A stretch of DNA of 32,000 nt, taken from Methanothermobacter marburgensis str. Marburg (lineage in GTDB: Archaea; Methanobacteriota; Methanobacteria; Methanobacteriales; Methanothermobacteraceae). Numbering within the stretch: position 1 is the stretch's first letter; every line of letters begins with the position of its first letter. The notes beneath the pieces are model-generated. The model saw only the letters and a program-made list of their open reading frames with translations, searched no databases and had not been told where the DNA came from. Where the stretch lies: the NCBI RefSeq assembly GCF_000145295.1, contig NC_014408.1:570001-602000 (forward strand). Reading direction: 5' to 3'. Below are positions 4,780 to 21,354 of this stretch, in pieces. The position numbers and the translations under genes were made by a program.

Positions 4780-5995
4780 GGTAGGAGTGGATACTGTGAA
4801 AATCAGGTTTATTGAAGGCGGGGTCTGCGCTGTTGATGGAGTGCTCGCTGCAGGTTGCCGCGAAGGTAAATATGGCGTTGGGCTTATCGTCACCAGAAAA
4901 GCAACTGCAGCGGGTGTTTTAACATCCAACAGGGTCCGGGCAGAACCTGTTAAATTGACAGAGAAGGTCCTTGAGGGCGGCAGAATTTCAGCCATAGTTG
5001 CAAACAGTGGAAACGCCAACTGTTTTACAGGAAGAGACGGGATGGATGATGCCCTCAGGATGGCCAGGGTAACAGCAGAATCCCTGCAGGTGGATGCCGG
5101 TGAGGTTGCGGTTGCATCAACTGGCGTTATAGGAAGGAGGATGCCCATCAGGAAGATCGAGTCCCTCATAAGAATGGCTGCAGATCAACTTGAAAACTCC
5201 CCGGAAGCCTCAGGGAACCTTGCATCTGCAATAATGACCACAGACACATTCCCCAAGGAGGTTGCGGTGGAGTTCCAGCTTGAAGGCGGTGAGACCGCCC
5301 GTATAGGTGCTGTTGCCAAGGGTTCAGGTATGATAGCCCCAAACATGGCCACAATGCTCTCCTTCATAACAACTGATGTTGATGCATCACCTTCAGAGCT
5401 CAGGGAGGCCCTCAGGAGGGCTGTTGACGACACCTTCAACATGCTCATAGTGGACGGTGATGAAAGCACCAATGACATGGTTATAATGGCATCAACCTGC
5501 AAATCAGGGAGGATAGATGAGAACTTCACTGAGGCCCTTGGGGTCGTCTGCAGGGAACTTGCCCGTATGATGGCACGTGACGGTGAGGGGGCCACCAAGT
5601 CATTCCAGGTCGATGTTGTGAATGCCAGGACACGGGAGGATGCAAGGAGGGCCGCCAGGGCAATCGCAGGTTCATCCCTCGTTAAGACGGCAATATTTGG
5701 GGCCGACCCCAACTGGGGACGTATAGTTGCGGCTGCAGGATATTCAGGTGCAGAGTTCGACCCCGACAGGATAAGTGTGACCCTAGAATCTGAGAACGGA
5801 TCTGTGGGAATAGTTGAGGAGGGGGATGTACTGGCCTTTGAGGGCAAACCTGAACTTGAACTTGCAGAGAGGATAATGGGTGATGATGAGATAAGGATAA
5901 CAGTTGACCTCAACGCCGGCAGTGAATCGGCAACTGCATACGGCTGTGATCTCACCTATGACTATGTGAGGATAAATGCTGAGTATACTACTTAA
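4778..5995 (+). CDS. argJ: bifunctional ornithine acetyltransferase / N-acetylglutamate synthase ArgJ
   Basis: Autoproteolytic site context KGSGMIAPNMATMLSFITTD. Family blocks DGDESTND and DPNWGRIVAAAG, and the C-terminal DLTYDYVRINAEYTT. The true start is more likely GTG 4787 or 4796, after GGAGTG, than the TTG at 4778, which lies inside a T7 tract. Confidence 0.93.
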   Translation: MVGVDTVKIRFIEGGVCAVDGVLAAGCREGKYGVGLIVTRKATAAGVLTSNRVRAEPVKLTEKVLEGGRISAIVANSGNANCFTGRDGMDDALRMARVTAESLQVDAGEVAVASTGVIGRRMPIRKIESLIRMAADQLENSPEASGNLASAIMTTDTFPKEVAVEFQLEGGETARIGAVAKGSGMIAPNMATMLSFITTDVDASPSELREALRRAVDDTFNMLIVDGDESTNDMVIMASTCKSGRIDENFTEALGVVCRELARMMARDGEGATKSFQVDVVNARTREDARRAARAIAGSSLVKTAIFGADPNWGRIVAAAGYSGAEFDPDRISVTLESENGSVGIVEEGDVLAFEGKPELELAERIMGDDEIRITVDLNAGSESATAYGCDLTYDYVRINAEYTT

Positions 5996-6910: not shown

Positions 6911-6940
6911 TTGCTTCATGGTCTCTCTTAATTTACTCAG

Positions 6941-7045
6941 CTAATTCCTTTTTTATGGCATGGGCCATTTCCATGGTACTGGCACTTCCTATTCATCTAA
7001 TTCCTTTTTTATGGCATGGGCCATTTCCATGGTACTGGCATTTCC
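6941..7045. repeat. 56-bp-period tandem duplication of the dehydrogenase gene 3' end (two copies, 48/49 identical core)
   Basis: 6941-6989 and 6997-7045 are identical over 44 nt and 48/49 overall. The second copy is the genuine 3' coding end of the minus-strand gene (..STMEMAHAIKKELDE*). The first copy lies just past the stop and would read ..SASTMEMAHAIKKELAE*, with its own TAA. Confidence 0.95.
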
Positions 7046-7978
7046 CCCAAGATCCGGTGTCATTATACCCTTAAGCAGAGTCCTTTCCAGTGCTTTCTGT
7101 ATTTTCTGTGCTTCCTGTGTTTTGTTTAGGTGTTTTAGCATGAGTGTTGTTGTTAGTATCATGGCTGTGGGGTTTGCTATGTTTTTTCCGGCTATCTGGG
7201 GTGCTGATCCGTGGACTGGTTCGAATATTGCGTTTTTTTCTCCTATATTTGCTGATGGCGCGAGTCCGAGTCCTCCTATGAGTCCTGCTGCTTCGTCTGA
7301 GACTATGTCCCCGAAGAGGTTGGTTGTGACCAGGACCTGGAATTCCTGGGGCTGTGTTATGAGGTACATGGCTGTGGCGTCCACGTAGTAGTCCTCTGCC
7401 TCCATCCCAGGGTACTTTGATGCCACCCGGTAGAATTCCTCCCTGAACACCCCATCGGTTTTTTTAAGGACATTTGCCTTGTGCACCGCGGTCACACGAG
7501 TCCACCCCTCCCTCTTAGCATACTCAAAGGCAAATCGACTTATCCTCCTGGATGCGGAGCGTGTTATGATCCTCCTTGCAACAGCCCCATCAGCGGTGAA
7601 CTCCTCATCACCCACATAGAGGTCCTCAGTGTTCTCCCTCACTATGACAAAGTCAAGGTCAGGGTAGAGGCACGGCACACCAGGAAGGGACTTCACAGGC
7701 CTCAAATTCGCAAAAAGATCAAGCTCACGCCTCAATGTAATAATGGCACTCTTCTGGCCGGGCACGGTTGTAACTGCACCAAAGAGTGTTGCATCGGACC
7801 TTCTGACGAGTTTCACTGTTTCCTCTGGTATGGTTTCACCGCACCTCATGAAGCACTCATTACCTGCCTCTGCATACACAAATTCCAGTTCAAGGTCCAG
7901 TCCTCCAAGAACGTGGAGGGCGGCTTCCATAACCTCCTTACCGATACCATCACCGGGTATAACTGTTATCCTGTACAT
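6989..7978 (-). CDS. isopropylmalate / homoisocitrate dehydrogenase family (beta-decarboxylating dehydrogenase)
   Basis: N-terminal ITVIPGDGIGKEV, then LFGAV, IVRENTEDLYVG, TNLFGDIVSDEAAGLIGGLGLAPSANIG and FEPVHGSAPQIAGKNIANP. I cannot tell LeuB from AksF by eye. Confidence 0.9.
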   Translation of the reverse strand: MYRITVIPGDGIGKEVMEAALHVLGGLDLELEFVYAEAGNECFMRCGETIPEETVKLVRRSDATLFGAVTTVPGQKSAIITLRRELDLFANLRPVKSLPGVPCLYPDLDFVIVRENTEDLYVGDEEFTADGAVARRIITRSASRRISRFAFEYAKREGWTRVTAVHKANVLKKTDGVFREEFYRVASKYPGMEAEDYYVDATAMYLITQPQEFQVLVTTNLFGDIVSDEAAGLIGGLGLAPSANIGEKNAIFEPVHGSAPQIAGKNIANPTAMILTTTLMLKHLNKTQEAQKIQKALERTLLKGIMTPDLGGNASTMEMAHAIKKELDE

Positions 7979-8041: not shown

Positions 8042-8082
8042 ATCCTATGATAAAAGTATACCCAAGTGGGGGGAATTTTTTC

Positions 8083-8961
8083 ATGCTCAACGTTCTCAGT
8101 ATCTTTGATTCCCTGAGGGATGATAGAAGCGCACTCAGACACTACAAGAAGAAGCTTCACGAGTACCAGGAACATGAGGCCGAGGTTCTCATAGATATAG
8201 GGGTCATCTACCTTGACAGGGGGGAAATAGAGAGGGCAGTGGGAAGCTTTGAGGAGGCCCTTGAAACCTACAGGAAACTCAAATTCCCTGAAGGAGTCGC
8301 ATATGCATCTGAACTCCTTGGGGACTCCCTGATGGCTCAGCGGGAATTTGATAGGGCGATGAAATGCTACTCAGAGTCACTCTCAATATACTCGGAGATC
8401 AACAGCAAGGTTGCAGATGAACTGAGGGATAAGATATATGAGGCGGGTAAGATAAAGGAGGCACTGAGTTCAGATGATACTGAACCTGAACCCGTCAAGC
8501 GGGATTCACAGTCCACAGACATTCAATCTGAGACCCAGAAAATCTTCAGACTTGCAGATGACCTCATGGGTATCATTGACTCCTTTGAATCATACGGGAA
8601 GTGCTGGGAGGACCGTGACATAGACACCCTCAATTCCAATCTGGAGTCTGCCACAATTATACGTGACCGCCCAACGGAGGCCCTTCTCAATCTTCTGATA
8701 GGTCGCTACAGGATGGAGGAGGGTGAGCTCTATGATGCCCTGAAGTTCATTAAAAGGTCCAACAGGATATTCAGGGAGAGTGGAGATTCTGCAGGAATTG
8801 CAGTATCCCTTGTGATCCTTGGAGTTCTCTTATTCCTTATTGATGAACGTGAAAATCTCTACAATGTATTTAAGGAGGCGCTTGAGATTTTCAGGGCACT
8901 TGGACTTGAAGACGCTGAGAAGGTTACAATGAATATCATAAATACCCTCACCAGGACCTGA
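8083..8961 (+). CDS. TPR-repeat protein
   Basis: Repeated 34-aa-like helical units (VLIDIGVIYLDRGEIERAVGSFEEALETYRKL; AYASELLGDSLMAQREFDRAMKCYSESLSIY; LNLLIGRYRMEEGELYDALKFIKRSNRIF). ATG 8083 follows GTGGGGGG. The ORF opens at 8047, but that ATG sits directly after the TATA element. Confidence 0.75.
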   Translation: MLNVLSIFDSLRDDRSALRHYKKKLHEYQEHEAEVLIDIGVIYLDRGEIERAVGSFEEALETYRKLKFPEGVAYASELLGDSLMAQREFDRAMKCYSESLSIYSEINSKVADELRDKIYEAGKIKEALSSDDTEPEPVKRDSQSTDIQSETQKIFRLADDLMGIIDSFESYGKCWEDRDIDTLNSNLESATIIRDRPTEALLNLLIGRYRMEEGELYDALKFIKRSNRIFRESGDSAGIAVSLVILGVLLFLIDERENLYNVFKEALEIFRALGLEDAEKVTMNIINTLTRT

Positions 8962-9033
8962 ACCTCAGTTCTTACTTACCAAATCATAAATACCCTCAGT
9001 GGGAGCTGAATCCCATTTCTTCCTTACTTTACC
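8935..9033. repeat. degenerate 48-bp-period duplication of the TPR gene 3' end, including a second in-frame stop
   Basis: Copy A runs 8935-8982 (ATCATAAATACCCTCACCAGGACCTGA..., IINTLTRT*). Copy B runs 8983-9033 (ATCATAAATACCCTCAGTGGGAGCTGA..., IINTLSGS*). The first 16 nt are identical and identity is about 75% afterwards. The stop codon is kept at the equivalent position (9007-9009). Confidence 0.8.
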
Positions 9034-9058: not shown

Positions 9059-9075
9059 TTTTTTTGTTTGATCAC
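9059..9075 (+). terminator. oligo-T tract (T7) within the shared motif TTTTTTTGTTTGATCAC
   Basis: A T7 run lies ~100 nt after the TPR stop. Archaeal termination uses oligo-T. A 16/17-identical copy of this 17-mer follows mdh. Confidence 0.4.
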
Positions 9076-15978: not shown

Positions 15979-17355
15979 TTGAATGAGTACACCAACAGGT
16001 CACTCAGGGTCTATGTTCTCATAGCTGCAACCCTATCATCCTTTTTAACACCCTTCATGGGGTCATCCATCAACGTTGCACTCCCTGTGATAGCACTTCA
16101 CTTCGGGATAGATGCAATACTGCAGACATGGATTCCAACGGCATTTCTCCTTGCAGCGGCAATCTTTGCCGTACCCTTTGGGAGGATATCTGAGATATAC
16201 GGTATGAAGAGGATTTTTATCTATGGAAACATGATATTCACTGTTTCATCAGTCCTATCAGCATTCTCACCCTCTGCCCTTGCCCTCATAATATTCAGGG
16301 CCATCCAGGGCGTGGGATCAGCCATGATATTCGTCACAGGCCTTGCAATGCTCACCCGTGTATTCCCGCCAATGGAGAGGGGTAAGGCCATAGGTATAAA
16401 CACGGCCGCAGTGTACATTGGACTTTCGATGGGCCCGGTTCTTGGGGGTTTTCTCACGCATTTCCTGGGCTGGCAGAGCATATTCCTTGTCACGGTCCCG
16501 GTAACACTCATTGTTCTTGCTGTGTGCCTCCTTAAGGTTGAGGGGGAATGGGCTGATGCCTCAGGGGAAAGTTTCGATGTCCCCGGTTCAATCTCCTACT
16601 GTATATTCCTGTTTCTTTTAATGTATGGATTCTCCGCCCTTCCTGAGGTTGTAGGGGCGCTCATGATAGTCCTGAGTATCCTGGCATTCGCGATATTCCT
16701 TAAAATTGAACTATCATCAGAGAGCCCTGTGTTCAATGTGAGGCTCTTCAAAAATCTCAGATTCAGTTTCTCAAGTCTCGCGGCCCTCATAAACTACAGT
16801 GCAACATTTGCGGTTTCCCTGCTTCTGAGCTACCACCTTCAGTACATCAAGGGACTGGACCCGGGCTCCAGCGGACTCATACTCGTCACGCAGCCCATTG
16901 TCATGGCATTCGTGGCCCCCCTGGCAGGGAGGGCCTCTGACAGGTTCAACCCCCAGATACTTGCAGGTATAGGGATGGCAATAAATGCGGCTGCGCTTCT
17001 GAGCCTCAGCATCCTTGATAGGGGCACGCCCCTATTCATGATAGTGACATCCCTTCTTGTCCTTGGCCTCGGTTTCGGGTTTTTCTCATCCCCCAACACC
17101 AATGCAATCATGGGTTCCGTTGAGAGGAGGGACTATGGCATTGCATCTGCCACCGTGAGCTCCATGCGCCTCATCGGCCAGGCCTTCAGCATAGGTATAG
17201 TGACACTCATCTTCGCATTCCTGATAGGGAGGGTTCCAATATCCCCTGCAAATTATGACCTCCTTATAGAGAGCACAAGGATATGCTTCCTGGTGTTCGG
17301 GGTCCTATGTTTCATAGGGGTTTTTGCTGCAACAGCCCACAGGAATGACGGCTGA
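15979..17355 (+). CDS. MFS transporter (14-TMS DHA2/EmrB-like)
   Basis: TTG start 6 nt after GGAGGG. The protein is hydrophobic throughout. MFS motif A-like GRISEIYGMKR is present, along with RAIQGVGSAM and a central loop before TMS7. Confidence 0.9.
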   Translation: MNEYTNRSLRVYVLIAATLSSFLTPFMGSSINVALPVIALHFGIDAILQTWIPTAFLLAAAIFAVPFGRISEIYGMKRIFIYGNMIFTVSSVLSAFSPSALALIIFRAIQGVGSAMIFVTGLAMLTRVFPPMERGKAIGINTAAVYIGLSMGPVLGGFLTHFLGWQSIFLVTVPVTLIVLAVCLLKVEGEWADASGESFDVPGSISYCIFLFLLMYGFSALPEVVGALMIVLSILAFAIFLKIELSSESPVFNVRLFKNLRFSFSSLAALINYSATFAVSLLLSYHLQYIKGLDPGSSGLILVTQPIVMAFVAPLAGRASDRFNPQILAGIGMAINAAALLSLSILDRGTPLFMIVTSLLVLGLGFGFFSSPNTNAIMGSVERRDYGIASATVSSMRLIGQAFSIGIVTLIFAFLIGRVPISPANYDLLIESTRICFLVFGVLCFIGVFAATAHRNDG

Positions 17356-17467: not shown

Positions 17468-18835
17468 TTGAAAGATGATTATCTGAAGGTTTATGTGCTA
17501 TGCGCAGTGACCTTCTCATCATTCCTCGCACCATTCATGGGTTCATCAATCAATGTGGCCCTCCCCCTTATGGGCGAGAGCCTTAATATGGGACCCTCCC
17601 AGCAGACCTGGATTATAACGGCATTTCTTTTAACAGCAAACGTCTTTCTATTGCCATTTGGCAGGTTATCTGAGATATACGGGATAAAGAGGCTCTTCAT
17701 TTCAGGTAACATCATATTCATCACAGCATCAGTTCTCTGTGCAATGGCACCTGATGCAGCTTCAATCATCCTTTTCAGGGCATTTCAGGGAATCGGGGCC
17801 TCCATGGTACTGGTAACAAGGCTTTCTCTCATATCAATGGTGTTCCCTGCATCTGAACGTGGCAGGGCCATAGGTGTGAATACAGCGGCAATAGATATGG
17901 GTCTCTTTGCCGGTCCCATCCTGGGAGGTTTTCTGGCAGAGATCATGGGATGGGAGTCCATATTCCTATTCACGGTTCCAGTGGGAATCCTTGTTATACT
18001 CATCTCGCTATCCAGAATTGATGACGAGTGGATGGCTGGTGGAAGCAAAAAATTCGATCTGGAAGGGTCACTCACCTACTGCACATCACTTTTTCTCTTC
18101 ATTCAGGGATTCTCAACACTTGCAAGTGTGAAGGGGCTTCTTCTGCTTGTTCTAAGTTTCCTGGCGTTTTCTCTCTTCATCAAGACGGAAACACAGGCAA
18201 GGAACCCACTCTTTAATGTTGAGTTATTTAAAAACAGAAGATTTTCCTTTTCATCCCTTGAAGCCCTTGTGGTATTCACATCCACATTTGCGGTTTCCCT
18301 GCTTCTCAGCTACCACCTCCAGTACGTCAGGGGACTCAGCCCCTCTGCCAGCGGACTTATACTCATAGTTCAACCCCTCATGATGGCCCTGATCGCCCCC
18401 CTTGCAGGGAGGATGGCCGATATGGTGAAGCCCCATATTCTGACATCAGCGGGTATGGTGCTGATCTTCATGGCACTCATGGGATTTGCAACACTGGGCC
18501 CTGATACACCGGAAACAGCAGTAATAATGGGACTCATGCTACTTGGAACGGGTATGGGACTTTTCTCATCCCCAAACACAACAAAGATTATGTGTTCAGT
18601 TAAGAGGGATCATGATGGGGTGGCGTCTGCCACCGTGAGCTCCATGCTCCTCATCGGCCAGGCCTTTAGCATGGGTACAGTGACACTGATCTTTGCATTC
18701 CTGATGGGGAGTGTTTCACTATCCCCTGCAAATTATGGCCTCCTCATGGAAAGCACAAGAAAATGCTTCCTTTTATTTGGTATTATCTGTTTCATAGGTC
18801 TTTTTGCCACAGCAATCCACAGAAACAGTTATTAA
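17468..18835 (+). CDS. MFS transporter, tandem paralog of the preceding gene
   Basis: TTG start after GAGGGGGG. It is collinear with the upstream paralog (GRLSEIYGIKR, RAFQGIGASM, FSFSSLEAL..STFAVSLLLSYHLQY). Confidence 0.9.
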   Translation: MKDDYLKVYVLCAVTFSSFLAPFMGSSINVALPLMGESLNMGPSQQTWIITAFLLTANVFLLPFGRLSEIYGIKRLFISGNIIFITASVLCAMAPDAASIILFRAFQGIGASMVLVTRLSLISMVFPASERGRAIGVNTAAIDMGLFAGPILGGFLAEIMGWESIFLFTVPVGILVILISLSRIDDEWMAGGSKKFDLEGSLTYCTSLFLFIQGFSTLASVKGLLLLVLSFLAFSLFIKTETQARNPLFNVELFKNRRFSFSSLEALVVFTSTFAVSLLLSYHLQYVRGLSPSASGLILIVQPLMMALIAPLAGRMADMVKPHILTSAGMVLIFMALMGFATLGPDTPETAVIMGLMLLGTGMGLFSSPNTTKIMCSVKRDHDGVASATVSSMLLIGQAFSMGTVTLIFAFLMGSVSLSPANYGLLMESTRKCFLLFGIICFIGLFATAIHRNSY

Positions 18836-19067
18836 ATGATCTTATATTGTTTGACAGTTGGGATGATCTGGGTCGCAGCATCAACCGTAAGTTCAATGAG
18901 TCTTATCGGGCAGATTCTGAACGGTCACCGCCAGCTTTTCGATTTTTATGGGGAGTCACATATTTTACCTAAGGATAAATATATTGATTAGGGAACAGGG
19001 ATCTGCTTCATCATATTTGCCTTGCTATGCATGATGGGGATACTTGCTCTGCTTATGGGTGTTAAAG

Positions 19068-19763
19068 ATGAGGATAAGGGTTCTTAAGGACGGACCATAC
19101 CTTGTGGAGGGCTCGGTACCACTCTATGAGGAGGTAATTGTAACCGATGAGGATGGACACACAAGGGAATTTGTTGAGAGAAGGGAGTTTCCAATGAAGG
19201 AGAGGTACCTCCTCTGCCGCTGTGGCGCATCAAAGAACAAACCCTACTGTGATGGAACACACCTTGAGGTGGGCTTTGATGGTACCGAAACAGCATCAAG
19301 GAAGCCCTACATTGAAAGGGCGACCGTGTTCAGGGCGGGGGACCTTGAACTCACCGATGTCCCTGAACTGTGCGACCACTCAAGGTTCTGCCTCAGGGCG
19401 GGGGGTATAAGGGAACTCCTCAGGAAGGGTGATACTGAGAGCATACAGATAGCCATTGAGGAGGCAATGATCTGCCCATCAGGGAGGCTCGTCCTCTGGG
19501 ACAGGAGGACCGGGAAACCCTATGAAAGGGACTATGAAAAATCAATAGTGGTTATCCATGATAAACAGAAGAAGTGTGAGGGGCCCCTCTGGGTCAGGGG
19601 AGGTATAAAAATAGAATCCGCAGATGGGAGGGAGTATGAGACCAGAAACAGGGTCACACTCTGTCGGTGCGGTTTATCTGAGAACAAACCATTCTGTGAT
19701 GGTAGCCACTGGATGAGTGCAGAGGAGAAGCTTGAATTTAAGAGGAAGTGGGGTATTGAGTAG
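19068..19763 (+). CDS. CDGSH-type iron-sulfur domain protein (two CDGSH motifs flanking a Cys-rich middle domain)
   Basis: CRCGASKNKPYCDGTH and CRCGLSENKPFCDGSH both match C-x-C-x2-S-x3-P-x-C-D-G-(S/T)-H. The middle region has CDHSRFC...ICPSG. ATG 19068 after GGGTG is preferred over the upstream TTG at 19044. Confidence 0.85.
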   Translation: MRIRVLKDGPYLVEGSVPLYEEVIVTDEDGHTREFVERREFPMKERYLLCRCGASKNKPYCDGTHLEVGFDGTETASRKPYIERATVFRAGDLELTDVPELCDHSRFCLRAGGIRELLRKGDTESIQIAIEEAMICPSGRLVLWDRRTGKPYERDYEKSIVVIHDKQKKCEGPLWVRGGIKIESADGREYETRNRVTLCRCGLSENKPFCDGSHWMSAEEKLEFKRKWGIE

Positions 19764-20207
19764 TTTTTTTGAGGAGAAGCTTGAATTTAAGAGGAAGTGG
19801 GGTATTGAGTAGTTTTTTTGAGGAGAAGCTTGAATTTAAGAGGAAGTGGGGTATTGAGTAGTTTTTTTGAGGAGAAGCTTGAATTTAAGAGGAAGTGGGG
19901 TATTGAGTAGTTTTTTTGAGGAGAAGCTTGAATTTAAGAGGAAGTGGGGTATTGAGTAGTTTTTTTGAGGAGAAGCTTGAATTTAAGAGGAAGTGGGGTA
20001 TTGAGTAGTTTTTTTGAGGAGAAGCTTGAATTTAAGAGGAAGTGGGGTATTGAGTAGTTTTTTTGAGGAGAAGCTTGAATTTAAGAGGAAGTGGGGTATT
20101 GAGTAGTTTTTTTGAGGAGAAGCTTGAATTTAAGAGGAAGTGGGGTATTGAGTAGTTTTTTTGAGGAGAAGCTTGAATTTAAGAGGAAGTGGGGTATTGA
20201 GTAGTTT
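19722..20207. repeat. perfect 49-bp tandem repeat, 9 full units plus one 45-bp unit
   Basis: The unit is GAGGAGAAGCTTGAATTTAAGAGGAAGTGGGGTATTGAGTAGTTTTTTT. Unit starts are 19722, 19771, 19820, 19869, 19918, 19967, 20016, 20065, 20114 and 20163. I found no mismatch when reading all copies. Unit 1 is the real 3' end of the CDGSH gene (EEKLEFKRKWGIE*) plus T7. Confidence 0.98.
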
Positions 20208-20244
20208 ACCAGAAAATAAGAAGAAATGAGAAATTTAGAAATTT

Positions 20245-20727
20245 CTACCCCATTTTCCTTTTCATCCAGAGCGCCCCTATTAAAAGGCCAACTATGACCC
20301 CTATCAGCGCCCCTGAAAGGAATGGAGTCATAAAGCCGCCACTCATCTTTTCTGTATTCACTGAGTTGAGTTCAAGGAGTTTCTCTCTGATTGATGCCTC
20401 ATCGGCACTGCAGTACGTCACCCTGGTTGCAAGTTCAGGATGCCTTTCAAGGAAGGCCCGCACGGTGTCCTGGTAGGCAACTGCCAGTATCTTCTTGTTG
20501 GGGTTTCCAAGGGCGTGTTCCAGTTCATGCTCCACATCCGATGGGCTCTGGAAACGGTACACGGTGACATTGACCCCGGTCTCATCGGCCACTGACCGCG
20601 CAAGTTTTCCTGTGGAGTTATCTGCTATTACAATGAATGACTCTGGGGTTATCTCCATTCCATGGGCTGAGACACCGCCGATAAGAAGAAAAATTAATAT
20701 GAATGCGAACTTTTTCACATGAACCAC
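20245..20727 (-). CDS. hypothetical bitopic protein (N-terminal signal/TM, C-terminal TM anchor)
   Basis: GTG start immediately after the upstream TAG stop. The N-terminal FAFILIFLLIGGVSAHG is signal-peptide-like. The C-terminal LSGALIGVIVGLLIGALW is followed by KRK. The ~110-aa central domain is unrecognised. Confidence 0.6.
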   Translation of the reverse strand: MVHVKKFAFILIFLLIGGVSAHGMEITPESFIVIADNSTGKLARSVADETGVNVTVYRFQSPSDVEHELEHALGNPNKKILAVAYQDTVRAFLERHPELATRVTYCSADEASIREKLLELNSVNTEKMSGGFMTPFLSGALIGVIVGLLIGALWMKRKMG

Positions 20728-21354
20728 CTAGACCTTTTCCATTGCAATGAGCTCAGGTTTCATCCTCTCAAGGAATGAGAATATGAACATGCTTGCAGCA
20801 CCCTCCACGACACCCACGAATATGTAGAAGGGTATGAGTGTTGACATGAGCATTTCAGGGCCTGCAACACCCGCTGCCAGGAGTATCATGATGTGGAACG
20901 CGGTTGCAATCATTATACCAAGAAGGAAGGTGGCTGAGAATACAGCAAGGCCCCTGTCGAGTTCACTTAGAACCCTGTAGACCCCATAGGTTCCGATTCC
21001 AAGGCCAATACCCATTGTCAGTATATTGGCCCCCATGCTGGTTATCCCCCCCATTCCAAGTATGAAGAACTGGACAAGGAGGCAGAGCACAGCAACCATA
21101 ACCGCCGTGAGGGGACCGAGTATTATGGCTGCAAGGGGTATCAGGAAGAAATGCACCGGGACACCGAAGGGTGATGGCACAGATATGGAGGATGCAACCG
21201 CCGCTGCCGCTGCAAAAAGTCCTGTTCCAGCTATCCTTTTTTCCTTTCCAGGTTTCTTTGAGAATATGTAGAAGAATATGCCAATGTTCACGAGTGCAAC
21301 AGCCCAGTAGACTGCAGACTGCCAAAGTGGTATGATTCCATCGGGTATATGCAC
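20728..21354 (-). CDS. CbiM/NikM-like metal (Co/Ni) transporter substrate-capture component
   Basis: The N-terminus MHIPDG is the hallmark of CbiM/NikM, where Met1-His2 ligate the metal. The protein is polytopic and Gly/Ala-rich. No CbiQ or CbiO gene is adjacent. Confidence 0.75.
   Translation of the reverse strand: MHIPDGIIPLWQSAVYWAVALVNIGIFFYIFSKKPGKEKRIAGTGLFAAAAAVASSISVPSPFGVPVHFFLIPLAAIILGPLTAVMVAVLCLLVQFFILGMGGITSMGANILTMGIGLGIGTYGVYRVLSELDRGLAVFSATFLLGIMIATAFHIMILLAAGVAGPEMLMSTLIPFYIFVGVVEGAASMFIFSFLERMKPELIAMEKV

What the first reader, a model, noticed from the sequence alone, without database searches (positions are those of the whole stretch)
19722..20207. Perfect 49-bp x ~10 tandem array built from a gene's last 13 codons, its stop codon and its T7 tract
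Seen directly: the unit GAGGAGAAGCTTGAATTTAAGAGGAAGTGGGGTATTGAGTAGTTTTTTT occurs 9 times in full and once as 45 bp, head to tail, with no mismatch that I could find. Unit 1 is the authentic end of the CDGSH Fe-S gene (..EEKLEFKRKWGIE, TAG) plus seven T. The array is therefore ten stacked copies of a coding 3' end with its stop and an oligo-T tract, which is the archaeal termination signal. The 49-bp period is not a multiple of 3, and each unit carries stops in two of the three forward frames, so the array does not extend the protein. It lies between convergent genes. Perfect identity across 486 bp implies either very recent expansion or continuing homogenisation, and arrays like this usually vary in copy number. 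There are no spacers, so it is not CRISPR, and I see no flanking mobile-element signature. Two older two-copy versions of the same design sit at 6941-7045 and 8935-9033, which suggests a recurrent local mechanism rather than a one-off. Possible consequences are a multi-terminator insulator between convergent transcription units, a 3'-UTR repeat RNA, or a protein-binding array.
Basis: seen in the sequence. Interest (0 to 1): 0.82.

Follow-up and report, generated by a model that had tools for sequence, protein, structure and literature searches.

The report
Variable tandem repeat at gene end
The end of an iron-sulfur protein gene in Methanothermobacter marburgensis has been copied head to tail ten times (six in a sister strain, one in most relatives); this is a real, copy-number-variable minisatellite, ordinary in kind, that also stacks nine oligo-T terminator-type signals behind the gene.

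Summary
Window 19722-20207 holds a 49-bp unit, 9 full copies plus 45 bp, with 100% identity. The window is M. marburgensis Marburg (CP069376.1), a de novo PacBio assembly. It differs from the 2010 reference by only 30 indel bases genome-wide, so both assemblies must carry ten copies. This is not an assembly artefact.

Strain KEPCO 2 has the same unit, junction and flanks but six copies. Its flanks differ from Marburg by about 3-4%, yet all 16 units are identical, which points to ongoing expansion, contraction and homogenisation. Another MAG carries an independent 55-bp x2 duplication of the same gene end. Seven other Methanothermobacter lineages examined have one copy.

In M. thermautotrophicus-type genomes the two convergent genes abut. 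The 40-50-bp spacer in the marburgensis group is itself a decayed older copy of the gene end.

Best reading: a locus-specific VNTR made by tandem duplication and slippage or unequal recombination. It is tolerated because copy 1 keeps the ORF and stop and no promoter lies between the convergent genes. Each junction creates a T7 tract, a plausible archaeal terminator. A selected insulator role is untested and less likely.

I found no structured RNA, no ORF of 40 aa or more, and no CRISPR or mobile-element features. It is a new member of a known kind, of modest interest.

The parts
19068..19763 (+). CDGSH / divergent 4Fe-4S iron-sulfur protein gene (231 aa from ATG 19068; alternative TTG start at 19044). 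Its last 13 codons plus TAG form the first repeat unit.
   Evidence: ORF list. Pfam zf-CDGSH 5e-41 and Fer4_19. The exact protein is WBF10409.1 / WP_048901179.1 of M. marburgensis.
19722..20207 (+). Tandem array of a 49-bp unit GAGGAGAAGCTTGAATTTAAGAGGAAGTGGGGTATTGAGTAGTTTTTTT, 9 full copies plus 45 bp. Equivalent to ten 45-bp cores joined by nine TTTT linkers.
19722..19770 (+). Unit 1: the authentic 3' end of the gene (EEKLEFKRKWGIE, TAG at 19761-19763) followed by the first T7 tract (19764-19770).
19764..20162 (+). Nine T7 tracts spaced 49 bp apart, starting at 19764, 19813, 19862, 19911, 19960, 20009, 20058, 20107 and 20156. On the sense strand of the CDGSH gene they are oligo-T (oligo-U) terminator-type signals. 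On the other strand they read A7.
   Evidence: T-run list. Oligo-T enrichment after stop codons in this window, 11/33 genes against a 10% background. Literature: PMC8716108; PMC2253867, abstract as listed.
20163..20207 (+). Last unit, 45 bp, ending GAGTAGTTT and lacking the final TTTT. This is the right-hand boundary of the array and is identical in KEPCO 2.
20205..20244 (.). Residual spacer TTTACCAGAAAATAAGAAGAAATGAGAAATTTAGAAATTT, read as a decayed older copy of the same gene end. It is identical in KEPCO 2 and in the single-copy MAG L013.
   Evidence: Spacer versus gene-end alignments with shuffle tests and a multiple alignment. The resemblance is significant in L011, L001 and L014, and not significant on its own in Marburg.
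20245..20727 (-). Convergent 160-aa gene (signal peptide plus C-terminal TM segment, no Pfam hit). It is the last gene of a minus-strand cluster that includes CbiM (20728-21354).
6937..7045 (-). Separate 56-bp x1.9 tandem duplication (96%) of the last ~17 codons plus stop of the Iso_dh gene 6989-7978. No oligo-T tract in the unit.
8935..9027 (+). Separate 48-bp x1.9 tandem duplication (82%) spanning the stop codon of the TPR gene 8047-8961. No oligo-T tract in the unit.

Best explanation
The array is a locus-specific minisatellite (VNTR). A 45-bp segment was duplicated in tandem in an ancestor of M. marburgensis Marburg and strain KEPCO 2: the last 13 codons of the CDGSH gene, its TAG and the following TTT. 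Four extra T at the junction give a 49-bp period and a T7 tract. Replication slippage and/or unequal homologous recombination between the identical units has since changed the copy number, to 10 in Marburg and 6 in KEPCO 2. The same processes keep the units identical (concerted evolution).

The array persists because it is nearly harmless. The first unit keeps the reading frame and the stop codon, the other frames are closed, and the site lies between the 3' ends of convergent genes where no promoter is needed. This also explains why the other short tandem duplications in the window straddle stop codons.

As a side effect every unit places a T7 tract on the sense strand. Transcription of the CDGSH gene is therefore expected to end mostly at the first one or two tracts, with the rest acting as silent back-up signals.

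Shown here: the array, its reality, the copy-number polymorphism, the homogeneity despite diverged flanks, and recurrent duplication at this gene end. Inferred: the slippage or recombination mechanism, near-neutrality, and termination at the T7 tracts.
For: The perfect 49-bp x9.9 array is confirmed.

The window is CP069376.1, a de novo PacBio/Canu assembly of strain Marburg. It differs from the older NC_014408.1 by 68 single nucleotides and 30 indel bases in total. That is fewer than one 49-bp unit, so both assemblies have the same copy number.

KEPCO 2 (CP166185.1, L012) has the identical unit x5.9, with the same left junction, the same truncated last unit and the same spacer. The Marburg and KEPCO 2 flanks differ at 16 of 500 bp upstream and 20 of 500 bp downstream. 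The nearest differences lie at -5, -58, -64 and +80. There are zero differences among the 16 units. About 9 differences would be expected over the 5 non-coding shared units at 3.6% divergence, so P(0) is about 2e-4 (my calculation). Marburg and KEPCO 2 are sisters in the downstream-flank tree.

Single-copy state: CaT2, JAXOFW, JASFYG, K4, Kamch, JBPEHK and M. thermautotrophicus-type contigs. L011 carries an independent 55-bp x2.0 duplication (98%) of the same gene end, explained by a simple duplication reaching 3 bp into the old decayed copy. The spacers of the marburgensis group resemble the gene end (L001 0/2000, L011 1/2000 and L014 4/2000 shuffles), whereas the genes abut in M. thermautotrophicus-type genomes.

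The RNA fold is no better than shuffles (z -0.2 to -1.5). There is no Rfam family, no inverted repeat and no viral hit.
Against: The origin of the four extra T at the junction is not explained by a simple duplication. The alternative is an ancestral T7 that later shortened in the last unit. The single-copy L013 could be either the ancestral state or a collapsed array, because collapse leaves no scar.

Three duplication events at one gene end (the old spacer, the 55-bp and the 49-bp duplications) are more than a purely random process would predict. This hints at a local hot spot or at selection. I could not verify KEPCO 2's sequencing method, so its copy number of six rests on the deposited complete genome alone.

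There are no transcript data: termination at the T7 tracts is inferred from other archaea. The copy number was unchanged between the 2010 and about 2020 Marburg assemblies, so turnover is not fast on laboratory time scales.
Confidence: 0.8

Rival explanations
1. The array is a selected multi-terminator or insulator. The stacked T7 tracts are maintained because they raise cumulative termination efficiency of the CDGSH transcript and stop it from running antisense into the convergent CbiM-cluster genes. Repeated 3'-end duplication would be the way this lineage created a spacer and terminator between genes that originally abutted.
For: Every unit carries a T7 tract right after a stop codon. T>=5 tracts are enriched about 3-fold after stop codons in this window. 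In M. maripaludis, more U4-tracts give higher termination efficacy, and more than 50% of transcription units have several consecutive termination sites (PMC8716108). A P. furiosus histone gene has four consecutive oligo-dT terminators (PMC2253867, abstract as listed). M. thermautotrophicus-type genomes have abutting convergent genes with no spacer. The marburgensis group acquired spacers derived from the gene end at least three times, several with T5-T7 at the junction.
Against: Close relatives manage with one copy and as little as TTT after the stop (L013, JAXOFW). Copy number varies 1/2/6/10 with no sign of an optimum. Nine extra tracts 49 bp apart add little once the first T7 acts. The aCPSF1 model needs tracts within about 18-36 nt, not 49 nt apart. 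The array gives only A7 to the opposing gene, so it insulates in one direction only. Perfect identity is the signature of turnover, not of selection on each unit. No transcript 3'-end data exist here.
Confidence: 0.13
2. The array is an assembly artefact, a collapsed or expanded repeat produced by the assembler.
For: Perfect identity over 486 bp is what an assembler error could produce. The metagenome scans found no junction.
Against: The record is a de novo PacBio assembly in which reads span the array. An independent older assembly differs by only 30 indel bases genome-wide. A different strain's complete genome carries the same unit with six copies and the same flanks.
Confidence: 0.02
3. 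The array is a functional cis-element of another kind: a protein-binding or chromatin-phasing array, a source of unit-length small RNAs, or a set of translated mini-ORFs (GAGGAG, 4 nt, then a TTG-initiated 26-codon ORF spanning each pair of units).
For: The units are regularly spaced and identical. 147 bp (3 units) equals 14 helical turns. An SD-like GAGGAG precedes a TTG ORF in each unit (my reading).
Against: Predicted RNA structure is no better than shuffles. There is no Rfam match. No ORF of 40 aa or more is present, and the mini-ORF lies downstream of T7 terminator signals. The array is absent from most congeners, including near-identical loci, so nothing conserved depends on it. The unit is simply the coding sequence of the neighbouring gene.
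Confidence: 0.05

Closest known systems
Prokaryotic minisatellites / VNTR loci (the kind used for MLVA typing), generated by replication slippage and unequal recombination
   Same: Head-to-tail units of tens of bp, locus-specific, copy number differing between strains (1/6/10), units kept identical by turnover, intergenic position that overlaps a gene end.
   Different: The unit is visibly derived from the 3' end of the adjacent gene plus its stop codon, and each junction creates an oligo-T tract. It is in an archaeal methanogen, and I found no published description of this locus.
Consecutive oligo-U/oligo-dT termination sites of archaeal genes (M. maripaludis Term-seq, PMC8716108; P. furiosus histone gene with four oligo-dT terminators, PMC2253867)
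   Same: Several T tracts in series downstream of a stop codon on the sense strand. A ladder of alternative 3' ends would be expected.
   Different: Known consecutive terminators are non-repetitive, closely spaced T-rich sequence. Here the tracts are 49 bp apart, embedded in perfect copies of coding sequence, and variable in number between strains. Termination here is untested.
Mycobacterial interspersed repetitive units (MIRU-VNTR; comparison from my own knowledge, not checked in a paper here)
   Same: Intergenic tandem units of 40-100 bp with variable copy number that overlap the ends of flanking ORFs.
   Different: MIRUs are a dispersed family present at dozens of loci. This unit was found only at this one locus in the sequence available, and it derives from the local gene.
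CRISPR arrays
   Same: Regularly spaced identical repeats in an archaeal genome.
   Different: There are no unique spacers at all. The units are contiguous and lack the palindromic repeat structure.

Membership tests
Prokaryotic minisatellite / VNTR | Head-to-tail (tandem) copies of a unit of roughly 10-100 bp | tested here: met
   49 bp x 9.9, 100% identity
Prokaryotic minisatellite / VNTR | Copy number differs between related strains at the same locus | tested here: met
   10 copies in Marburg, 6 in KEPCO 2, with the same junction and flanks. One copy in CaT2, JAXOFW, JASFYG, K4, Kamch and others.
Prokaryotic minisatellite / VNTR | Real in the organism's DNA (not assembly-generated) | tested here: met
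   De novo PacBio assembly. Only 30 indel bases against the independent 2010 assembly. Second strain.
Prokaryotic minisatellite / VNTR | Copy-number change observed directly within a lineage (mutation rate) | not testable with these tools
   Needs long-read population data or PCR sizing. The two Marburg assemblies show no change.
Archaeal oligo-U (intrinsic / aCPSF1-assisted) terminator | Run of at least 4-5 T on the sense strand shortly after the stop codon | tested here: met
   T7 starts 1 nt after TAG and recurs 9 times. Criterion taken from PMC8716108.
Archaeal oligo-U (intrinsic / aCPSF1-assisted) terminator | Transcript 3' ends map to the tract | not testable with these tools
   No Term-seq or RNA-seq access. 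Stranded RNA-seq exists as GEO GSE218145.
CRISPR array | Repeats separated by unique spacers of similar length | tested here: not met
   Units are contiguous with no spacer.
Dispersed intergenic repeat families (MIRU/REP/MITE-like) | Same element at multiple loci; terminal inverted repeats for MITEs | tested here: not met
   The 49-mer occurs only in this array within the 32-kb window. No inverted repeats flank it. No hit in viral contigs or JGI metagenome contigs. The whole genome was not available to me.
Structured non-coding RNA | Stable or conserved secondary structure, or a match to an Rfam family | tested here: not met
   No Rfam gathering-score hit. MFE z-scores -0.26, -0.19 and -1.45 for 1-3 units.

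The most novel reading that the evidence does not exclude
The junction between these two convergent genes may be a hot spot where coding 3' ends are repeatedly duplicated to create intergenic DNA and oligo-T terminators de novo. Ancestrally the genes abut, as they still do in M. thermautotrophicus. The marburgensis clade gained a spacer from a gene-end copy, then gained a 55-bp and a 49-bp duplication independently, each with a T-rich junction. On this reading the 6-10-copy array is a selected, tunable multi-terminator whose copy number sets read-through and antisense interference between the CDGSH gene and the CbiM cluster.
Probability: 0.12. Interest if true: 0.6.

Novelty: new member of a known kind. 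Interest (0 to 1): 0.3.

Why it matters
There are three modest reasons.

(1) It is a ready-made strain marker for M. marburgensis-clade methanogens, which are used in power-to-gas biomethanation. A single PCR across the locus separates Marburg (10), KEPCO 2 (6) and single-copy strains.

(2) It is a clean natural example of concerted evolution in an archaeon and of how intergenic DNA arises. The spacer between two once-abutting convergent genes is made of successive copies of a coding 3' end.

(3) It offers a natural test for archaeal termination. Nine identical T7 signals 49 nt apart should give a quantifiable ladder of 3' ends, from which per-tract termination efficiency in vivo could be read directly.

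None of this overturns current understanding.

Tried and rejected
- **Junction in JGI metagenome contigs:** I scanned for the exact repeat junction and for a degenerate version allowing 0-12 nt between TAGTTT and GAGGAG. Both scans gave 0 hits, so there is no environmental copy-number series.
- **Viral contigs:** a scan with a 30-mer of the unit gave 0 hits, which rejects a viral or mobile origin.
- **Rfam at gathering score over the whole window:** nothing.
- **RNA folding of 1-3 units, both strands, and of the gene end plus units:** z-scores between -1.45 and +1.5, which rejects a structured RNA.
- **Inverted repeats in 18800-21200:** only one weak pair, inside the gene, which rejects a MITE or IS signature.
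- **Bacterial-type hairpin terminator and sigma-70 promoter scan:** nothing in the array. The scan is not designed for archaea.
- **Old Marburg record (ADL58243.1 / CP001710):** two look-ups failed. I relied instead on the published genome-wide comparison.
- **Recent horizontal transfer between Marburg and KEPCO 2:** I looked for an unusually long identical block around the array. Identity ends at -5 and +80, so there is no evidence for transfer.
- **Literature searches for a description of this array or of repeats in M. marburgensis:** nothing relevant.
- **Spacer as decayed gene-end copy, tested on the Marburg spacer alone:** not significant by itself (386/2000 shuffles). The inference rests on the better-preserved homologous spacers of L001, L011 and L014.
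Full report
**1. The observation**

The 49-bp unit GAGGAGAAGCTTGAATTTAAGAGGAAGTGGGGTATTGAGTAGTTTTTTT occurs nine times head to tail and is followed by a tenth copy of 45 bp, with no mismatch. TRF gives period 49, 9.9 copies, 100% matches and score 972. The exact 49-mer matches 9 times, against 0 in 100 shuffles.

The ORF 19068 (ATG; or TTG at 19044) to 19763 ends ..AEEKLEFKRKWGIE-TAG, so unit 1 is the end of that gene. The protein has two zf-CDGSH domains and a Fer4_19 domain. The next gene, 20245-20727, is on the minus strand, so the array lies between convergent 3' ends. On the forward strand one frame of the unit ends in TAG, a second has four stops and the third is open. Because 49 is not a multiple of 3, no reading frame survives more than 33 codons on the plus strand, and no ORF of 40 aa or more lies in the array on either strand.

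One refinement is needed. The periodic stretch is 9x49+45 bp, the base before it breaks the period, and the last copy ends TAGTTT followed by ACCAG. The structure is therefore ten 45-bp cores joined by nine TTTT linkers.

**2. Where the window comes from, and whether the array is real**

The exact CDGSH protein is encoded on CP069376.1, a 1,634,705-bp record of Methanothermobacter marburgensis, with the same 482-bp gap to the next gene. CP069376 is the strain Marburg genome of Casini et al. 2023 (PMC10579436). It was assembled de novo from PacBio reads with Canu and Arrow, and such reads span a 486-bp array many times over.

The same paper reports that the new sequence differs from the 2010 reference NC_014408.1 by 68 single nucleotides and only 30 indel bases in total. 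One repeat unit more or less would cost 49 indel bases. The two independent assemblies, made about ten years apart, must therefore both contain ten copies. An assembly artefact is excluded. At the consensus level the copy number is also stable on laboratory time scales.

**3. Comparison with relatives**

I fetched the locus from every close relative I could reach through the exact-protein index.

| Genome | Locus | State at the CDGSH gene end |
|---|---|---|
| M. marburgensis Marburg (CP069376.1) | window / L007 | 49-bp unit, 10 cores |
| Methanothermobacter sp. KEPCO 2 (CP166185.1) | L012 | identical 49-bp unit, 6 cores (TRF 5.9 copies, 100%) |
| MAG JASFYE010000011 | L011 | separate 55-bp x2.0 duplication, 98% |
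| CaT2 | L008 | one copy |
| JAXOFW | L010 | one copy |
| MAG JASFYG | L013 | one copy |
| K4 | L014 | one copy |
| Kamchatka MAG | L001 | one copy |
| JBPEHK | L009 | one copy |
| M. thermautotrophicus-type contigs | L015-L022 | one copy |

KEPCO 2 has the same left boundary (..TGCA|GAGGAG), the same truncated last copy (TAGTTT|ACCAG) and the same downstream spacer as Marburg. More distant methanogens have no repeat at this gene end.

**4. Age and dynamics**

The shared and non-trivial junction (four extra T) and the shared right boundary indicate that Marburg and KEPCO 2 inherited the array from a common ancestor. They are sisters in the downstream-flank tree. Their flanks have since diverged: 16 differences in the 500 bp upstream and 20 in the 500 bp downstream, with the nearest at -5, -58, -64 and +80.

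At about 3.6% divergence, the five shared non-coding units (about 241 bp) should show roughly nine differences between the strains if each unit had been inherited and evolved on its own. The nine non-coding Marburg units should carry several private changes. None exists among the 16 units, and the Poisson probability of zero is of the order of 1e-4 (my calculation). The identical tract does not extend unusually far into the flanks, so a recent transfer of the whole block is not indicated.

The simplest account is continuing gain and loss of units by slippage or unequal recombination. This homogenises the array, with the gene-proximal unit held constant by selection on the protein.

**5. History of the locus**

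In M. thermautotrophicus-type genomes and in L009 the two convergent genes abut, with 0-3 bp called between them (0-6 bp read stop to stop). In the marburgensis group they are separated by 40-50 bp, and that spacer looks like a decayed copy of the gene end. Local alignment of spacer against gene end beats all or nearly all of 2000 shuffles in three loci:

- L001: 0 of 2000 shuffles
- L011: 1 of 2000
- L014: 4 of 2000

It is weaker in L010 (78 of 2000) and not significant alone in Marburg, CaT2 or L013. A multiple alignment nevertheless links all the spacers. The L011 spacer, for example, reads GCAGAGAAAAAGAGGAAGTGGGAAACTGAGGAGTTTT, against the gene end GCAGAGGAGAAGCTTGAATTTAAGAGGAAGTGGGGTATTGAGTAGTTTT.

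The same gene end has therefore been duplicated at least three times:

- an old event that created the spacer;
- the 55-bp event in L011, which is fully explained as a simple duplication reaching 3 bp into the old copy;
- the 49-bp event in the Marburg/KEPCO 2 lineage.

The spacer also turns over quickly. CaT2 and JAXOFW have flanks 98-99% identical but spacers of different types.

The single-copy MAG L013 has a spacer identical to the one after the Marburg array, and only TTT after its stop codon. Either T3 is ancestral and four of the seven T arose at the junction, or L013 is a collapsed array. Collapse leaves no scar, so I cannot tell which. In either case 'its T7 tract' is not securely a feature of the original gene. 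T-run length after this stop codon varies across strains:

- T7 in CaT2 and L011
- T5 in K4
- T3 in L013
- TT in JAXOFW (TTCGCAG)
- an interrupted GTTTCT in the Kamchatka MAG

**6. The 'same design' repeats**

The repeat at 6937-7045 is a 56-bp x1.9 duplication (96%) of the last ~17 codons plus stop of the minus-strand Iso_dh gene. It reads ..AIKKELDE-TAG and then ..AIKKELAE-TAA. The repeat at 8935-9027 is a 48-bp x1.9 duplication (82%) spanning the stop of a TPR gene.

All three repeats of period 15 bp or more in the window therefore straddle a stop codon, but the two older units contain no oligo-T tract. In related loci, short duplications also span a start codon (L009 5268-5325), lie in a spacer (L001 10028-10081, 27 bp x2, perfect), or are in-frame 18-bp repeats inside a gene.

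Long ORFs cover about 90% of the window. A duplication whose length is not a multiple of 3 inside a gene destroys it, whereas one that spans the stop codon leaves an intact first copy. The common 'design' is most simply a survivorship filter, not a dedicated mechanism. This is an inference. A genome-wide census would test it.

**7. What the array does**

I found nothing that points to a function of its own:

- no Rfam family;
- predicted RNA structure no better than shuffles (z -0.26, -0.19 and -1.45 for one to three units; the minus strand is essentially unstructured);
- no flanking inverted repeats;
- no match in viral contigs;
- no bacterial-type hairpin terminator or promoter;
- absence from most congeners.

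The one predictable consequence is transcriptional. Each unit carries T7 on the sense strand immediately after a stop codon. In this window, T>=5 occurs within 100 nt after the stop of 11 of 33 long ORFs, against 10% of random 100-nt windows. In M. maripaludis, U-tracts together with aCPSF1 set termination efficacy, more tracts give higher efficacy, and over half of transcription units have several consecutive termination sites (PMC8716108). A P. furiosus histone gene carries four consecutive oligo-dT terminators, and termination there occurs mainly at the first (PMC2253867, abstract as listed).

I therefore expect the CDGSH transcript to end mostly at the first one or two T7 tracts, with a weak 49-nt ladder beyond. 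The opposing gene sees only A7 tracts, so any insulation works in one direction. A selected multi-terminator role is possible, and the threefold recurrence of duplication at a junction that was originally spacer-less is suggestive. However, strains with one copy and only TTT after the stop exist, copy number shows no optimum, and perfect identity reflects turnover rather than selection on each unit. I give this rival about 0.13.

**8. Comparison with known kinds, and novelty**

The array meets the defining features of a prokaryotic minisatellite or VNTR: tandem units of tens of bp, copy-number polymorphism between strains, and real DNA. It fails the defining features of three other kinds:

- CRISPR, because it has no spacers;
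- dispersed repeat families or MITEs, because it occupies a single locus and has no inverted repeats;
- structured RNAs.

It resembles the consecutive oligo-U terminators of archaeal genes in layout, but membership needs transcript 3'-end data that I could not obtain. I found no publication describing this locus.

It is a new member of a known kind. Its points of interest are:

- its visible derivation from a coding 3' end;
- the recurrent duplication that built the spacer between two once-abutting genes;
- the clear evidence for concerted evolution;
- practical use as a strain marker and as a natural ladder for measuring archaeal termination.

Interest 0.3.

Noticed in passing
window 6937-7045 (minus-strand gene 6989-7978): A 56-bp x1.9 tandem duplication (96%) of the last ~17 codons plus stop of an isocitrate/isopropylmalate dehydrogenase-family gene. 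The gene ends ..AIKKELDE-TAG and the downstream copy reads ..AIKKELAE-TAA. It is unclear which ending is ancestral.
   Followed up: partly
window 8935-9027 (gene 8047-8961, +): A 48-bp x1.9 tandem duplication (82%) spanning the stop codon of a TPR-repeat gene. A T7 tract lies outside the repeat, at 9059.
   Followed up: partly
L011 3652-3762 (MAG JASFYE010000011.1): An independent 55-bp x2.0 duplication (98%) of the same CDGSH gene end. The non-coding second copy carries GAGAAGCTTG, as in Marburg, while the coding first copy has GAGAAACTTG.
   Followed up: yes
L008 3697-3743 vs L010 3697-3740: CaT2 and JAXOFW have flanks 98-99% identical, but their spacers between the convergent genes are of different sequence types. 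The spacer therefore turns over much faster than its surroundings.
   Followed up: partly
window 15979-17355 and 17468-18835; L012 1414-2610: Two tandem paralogous MFS transporter genes lie upstream of the CDGSH gene. In KEPCO 2 the second is called as two fragments (243 + 100 aa), probably a pseudogene.
   Followed up: no
window 19771-20207, each pair of units: An SD-like GAGGAG, then 4 nt, then a TTG opens a 26-codon ORF (MNLRGSGVLSSFFEEKLEFKRKWGIE) that runs from one unit into the coding frame of the next. It is repeated nine times and is probably incidental, because it lies behind T7 tracts.
   Followed up: partly
L001 10028-10081; L009 5268-5325; L008/L010/L012/L013 ~5170-5444: Further short tandem duplications in related genomes. 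L001 has a perfect 27-bp x2 ending in T5 in a spacer. L009 has a 26-bp x2.2 spanning a start codon. L008, L010, L012 and L013 share an in-frame 18-bp x2 inside the 143-aa Ser-rich secreted-protein gene.
   Followed up: no
window, whole: T runs of 7 or more number 8 on the + strand outside the array, against a single A run of 7 or more. Several lie just after + strand stop codons (9059, 10735, 17401/17409), which is consistent with oligo-T gene-end signals.
   Followed up: partly
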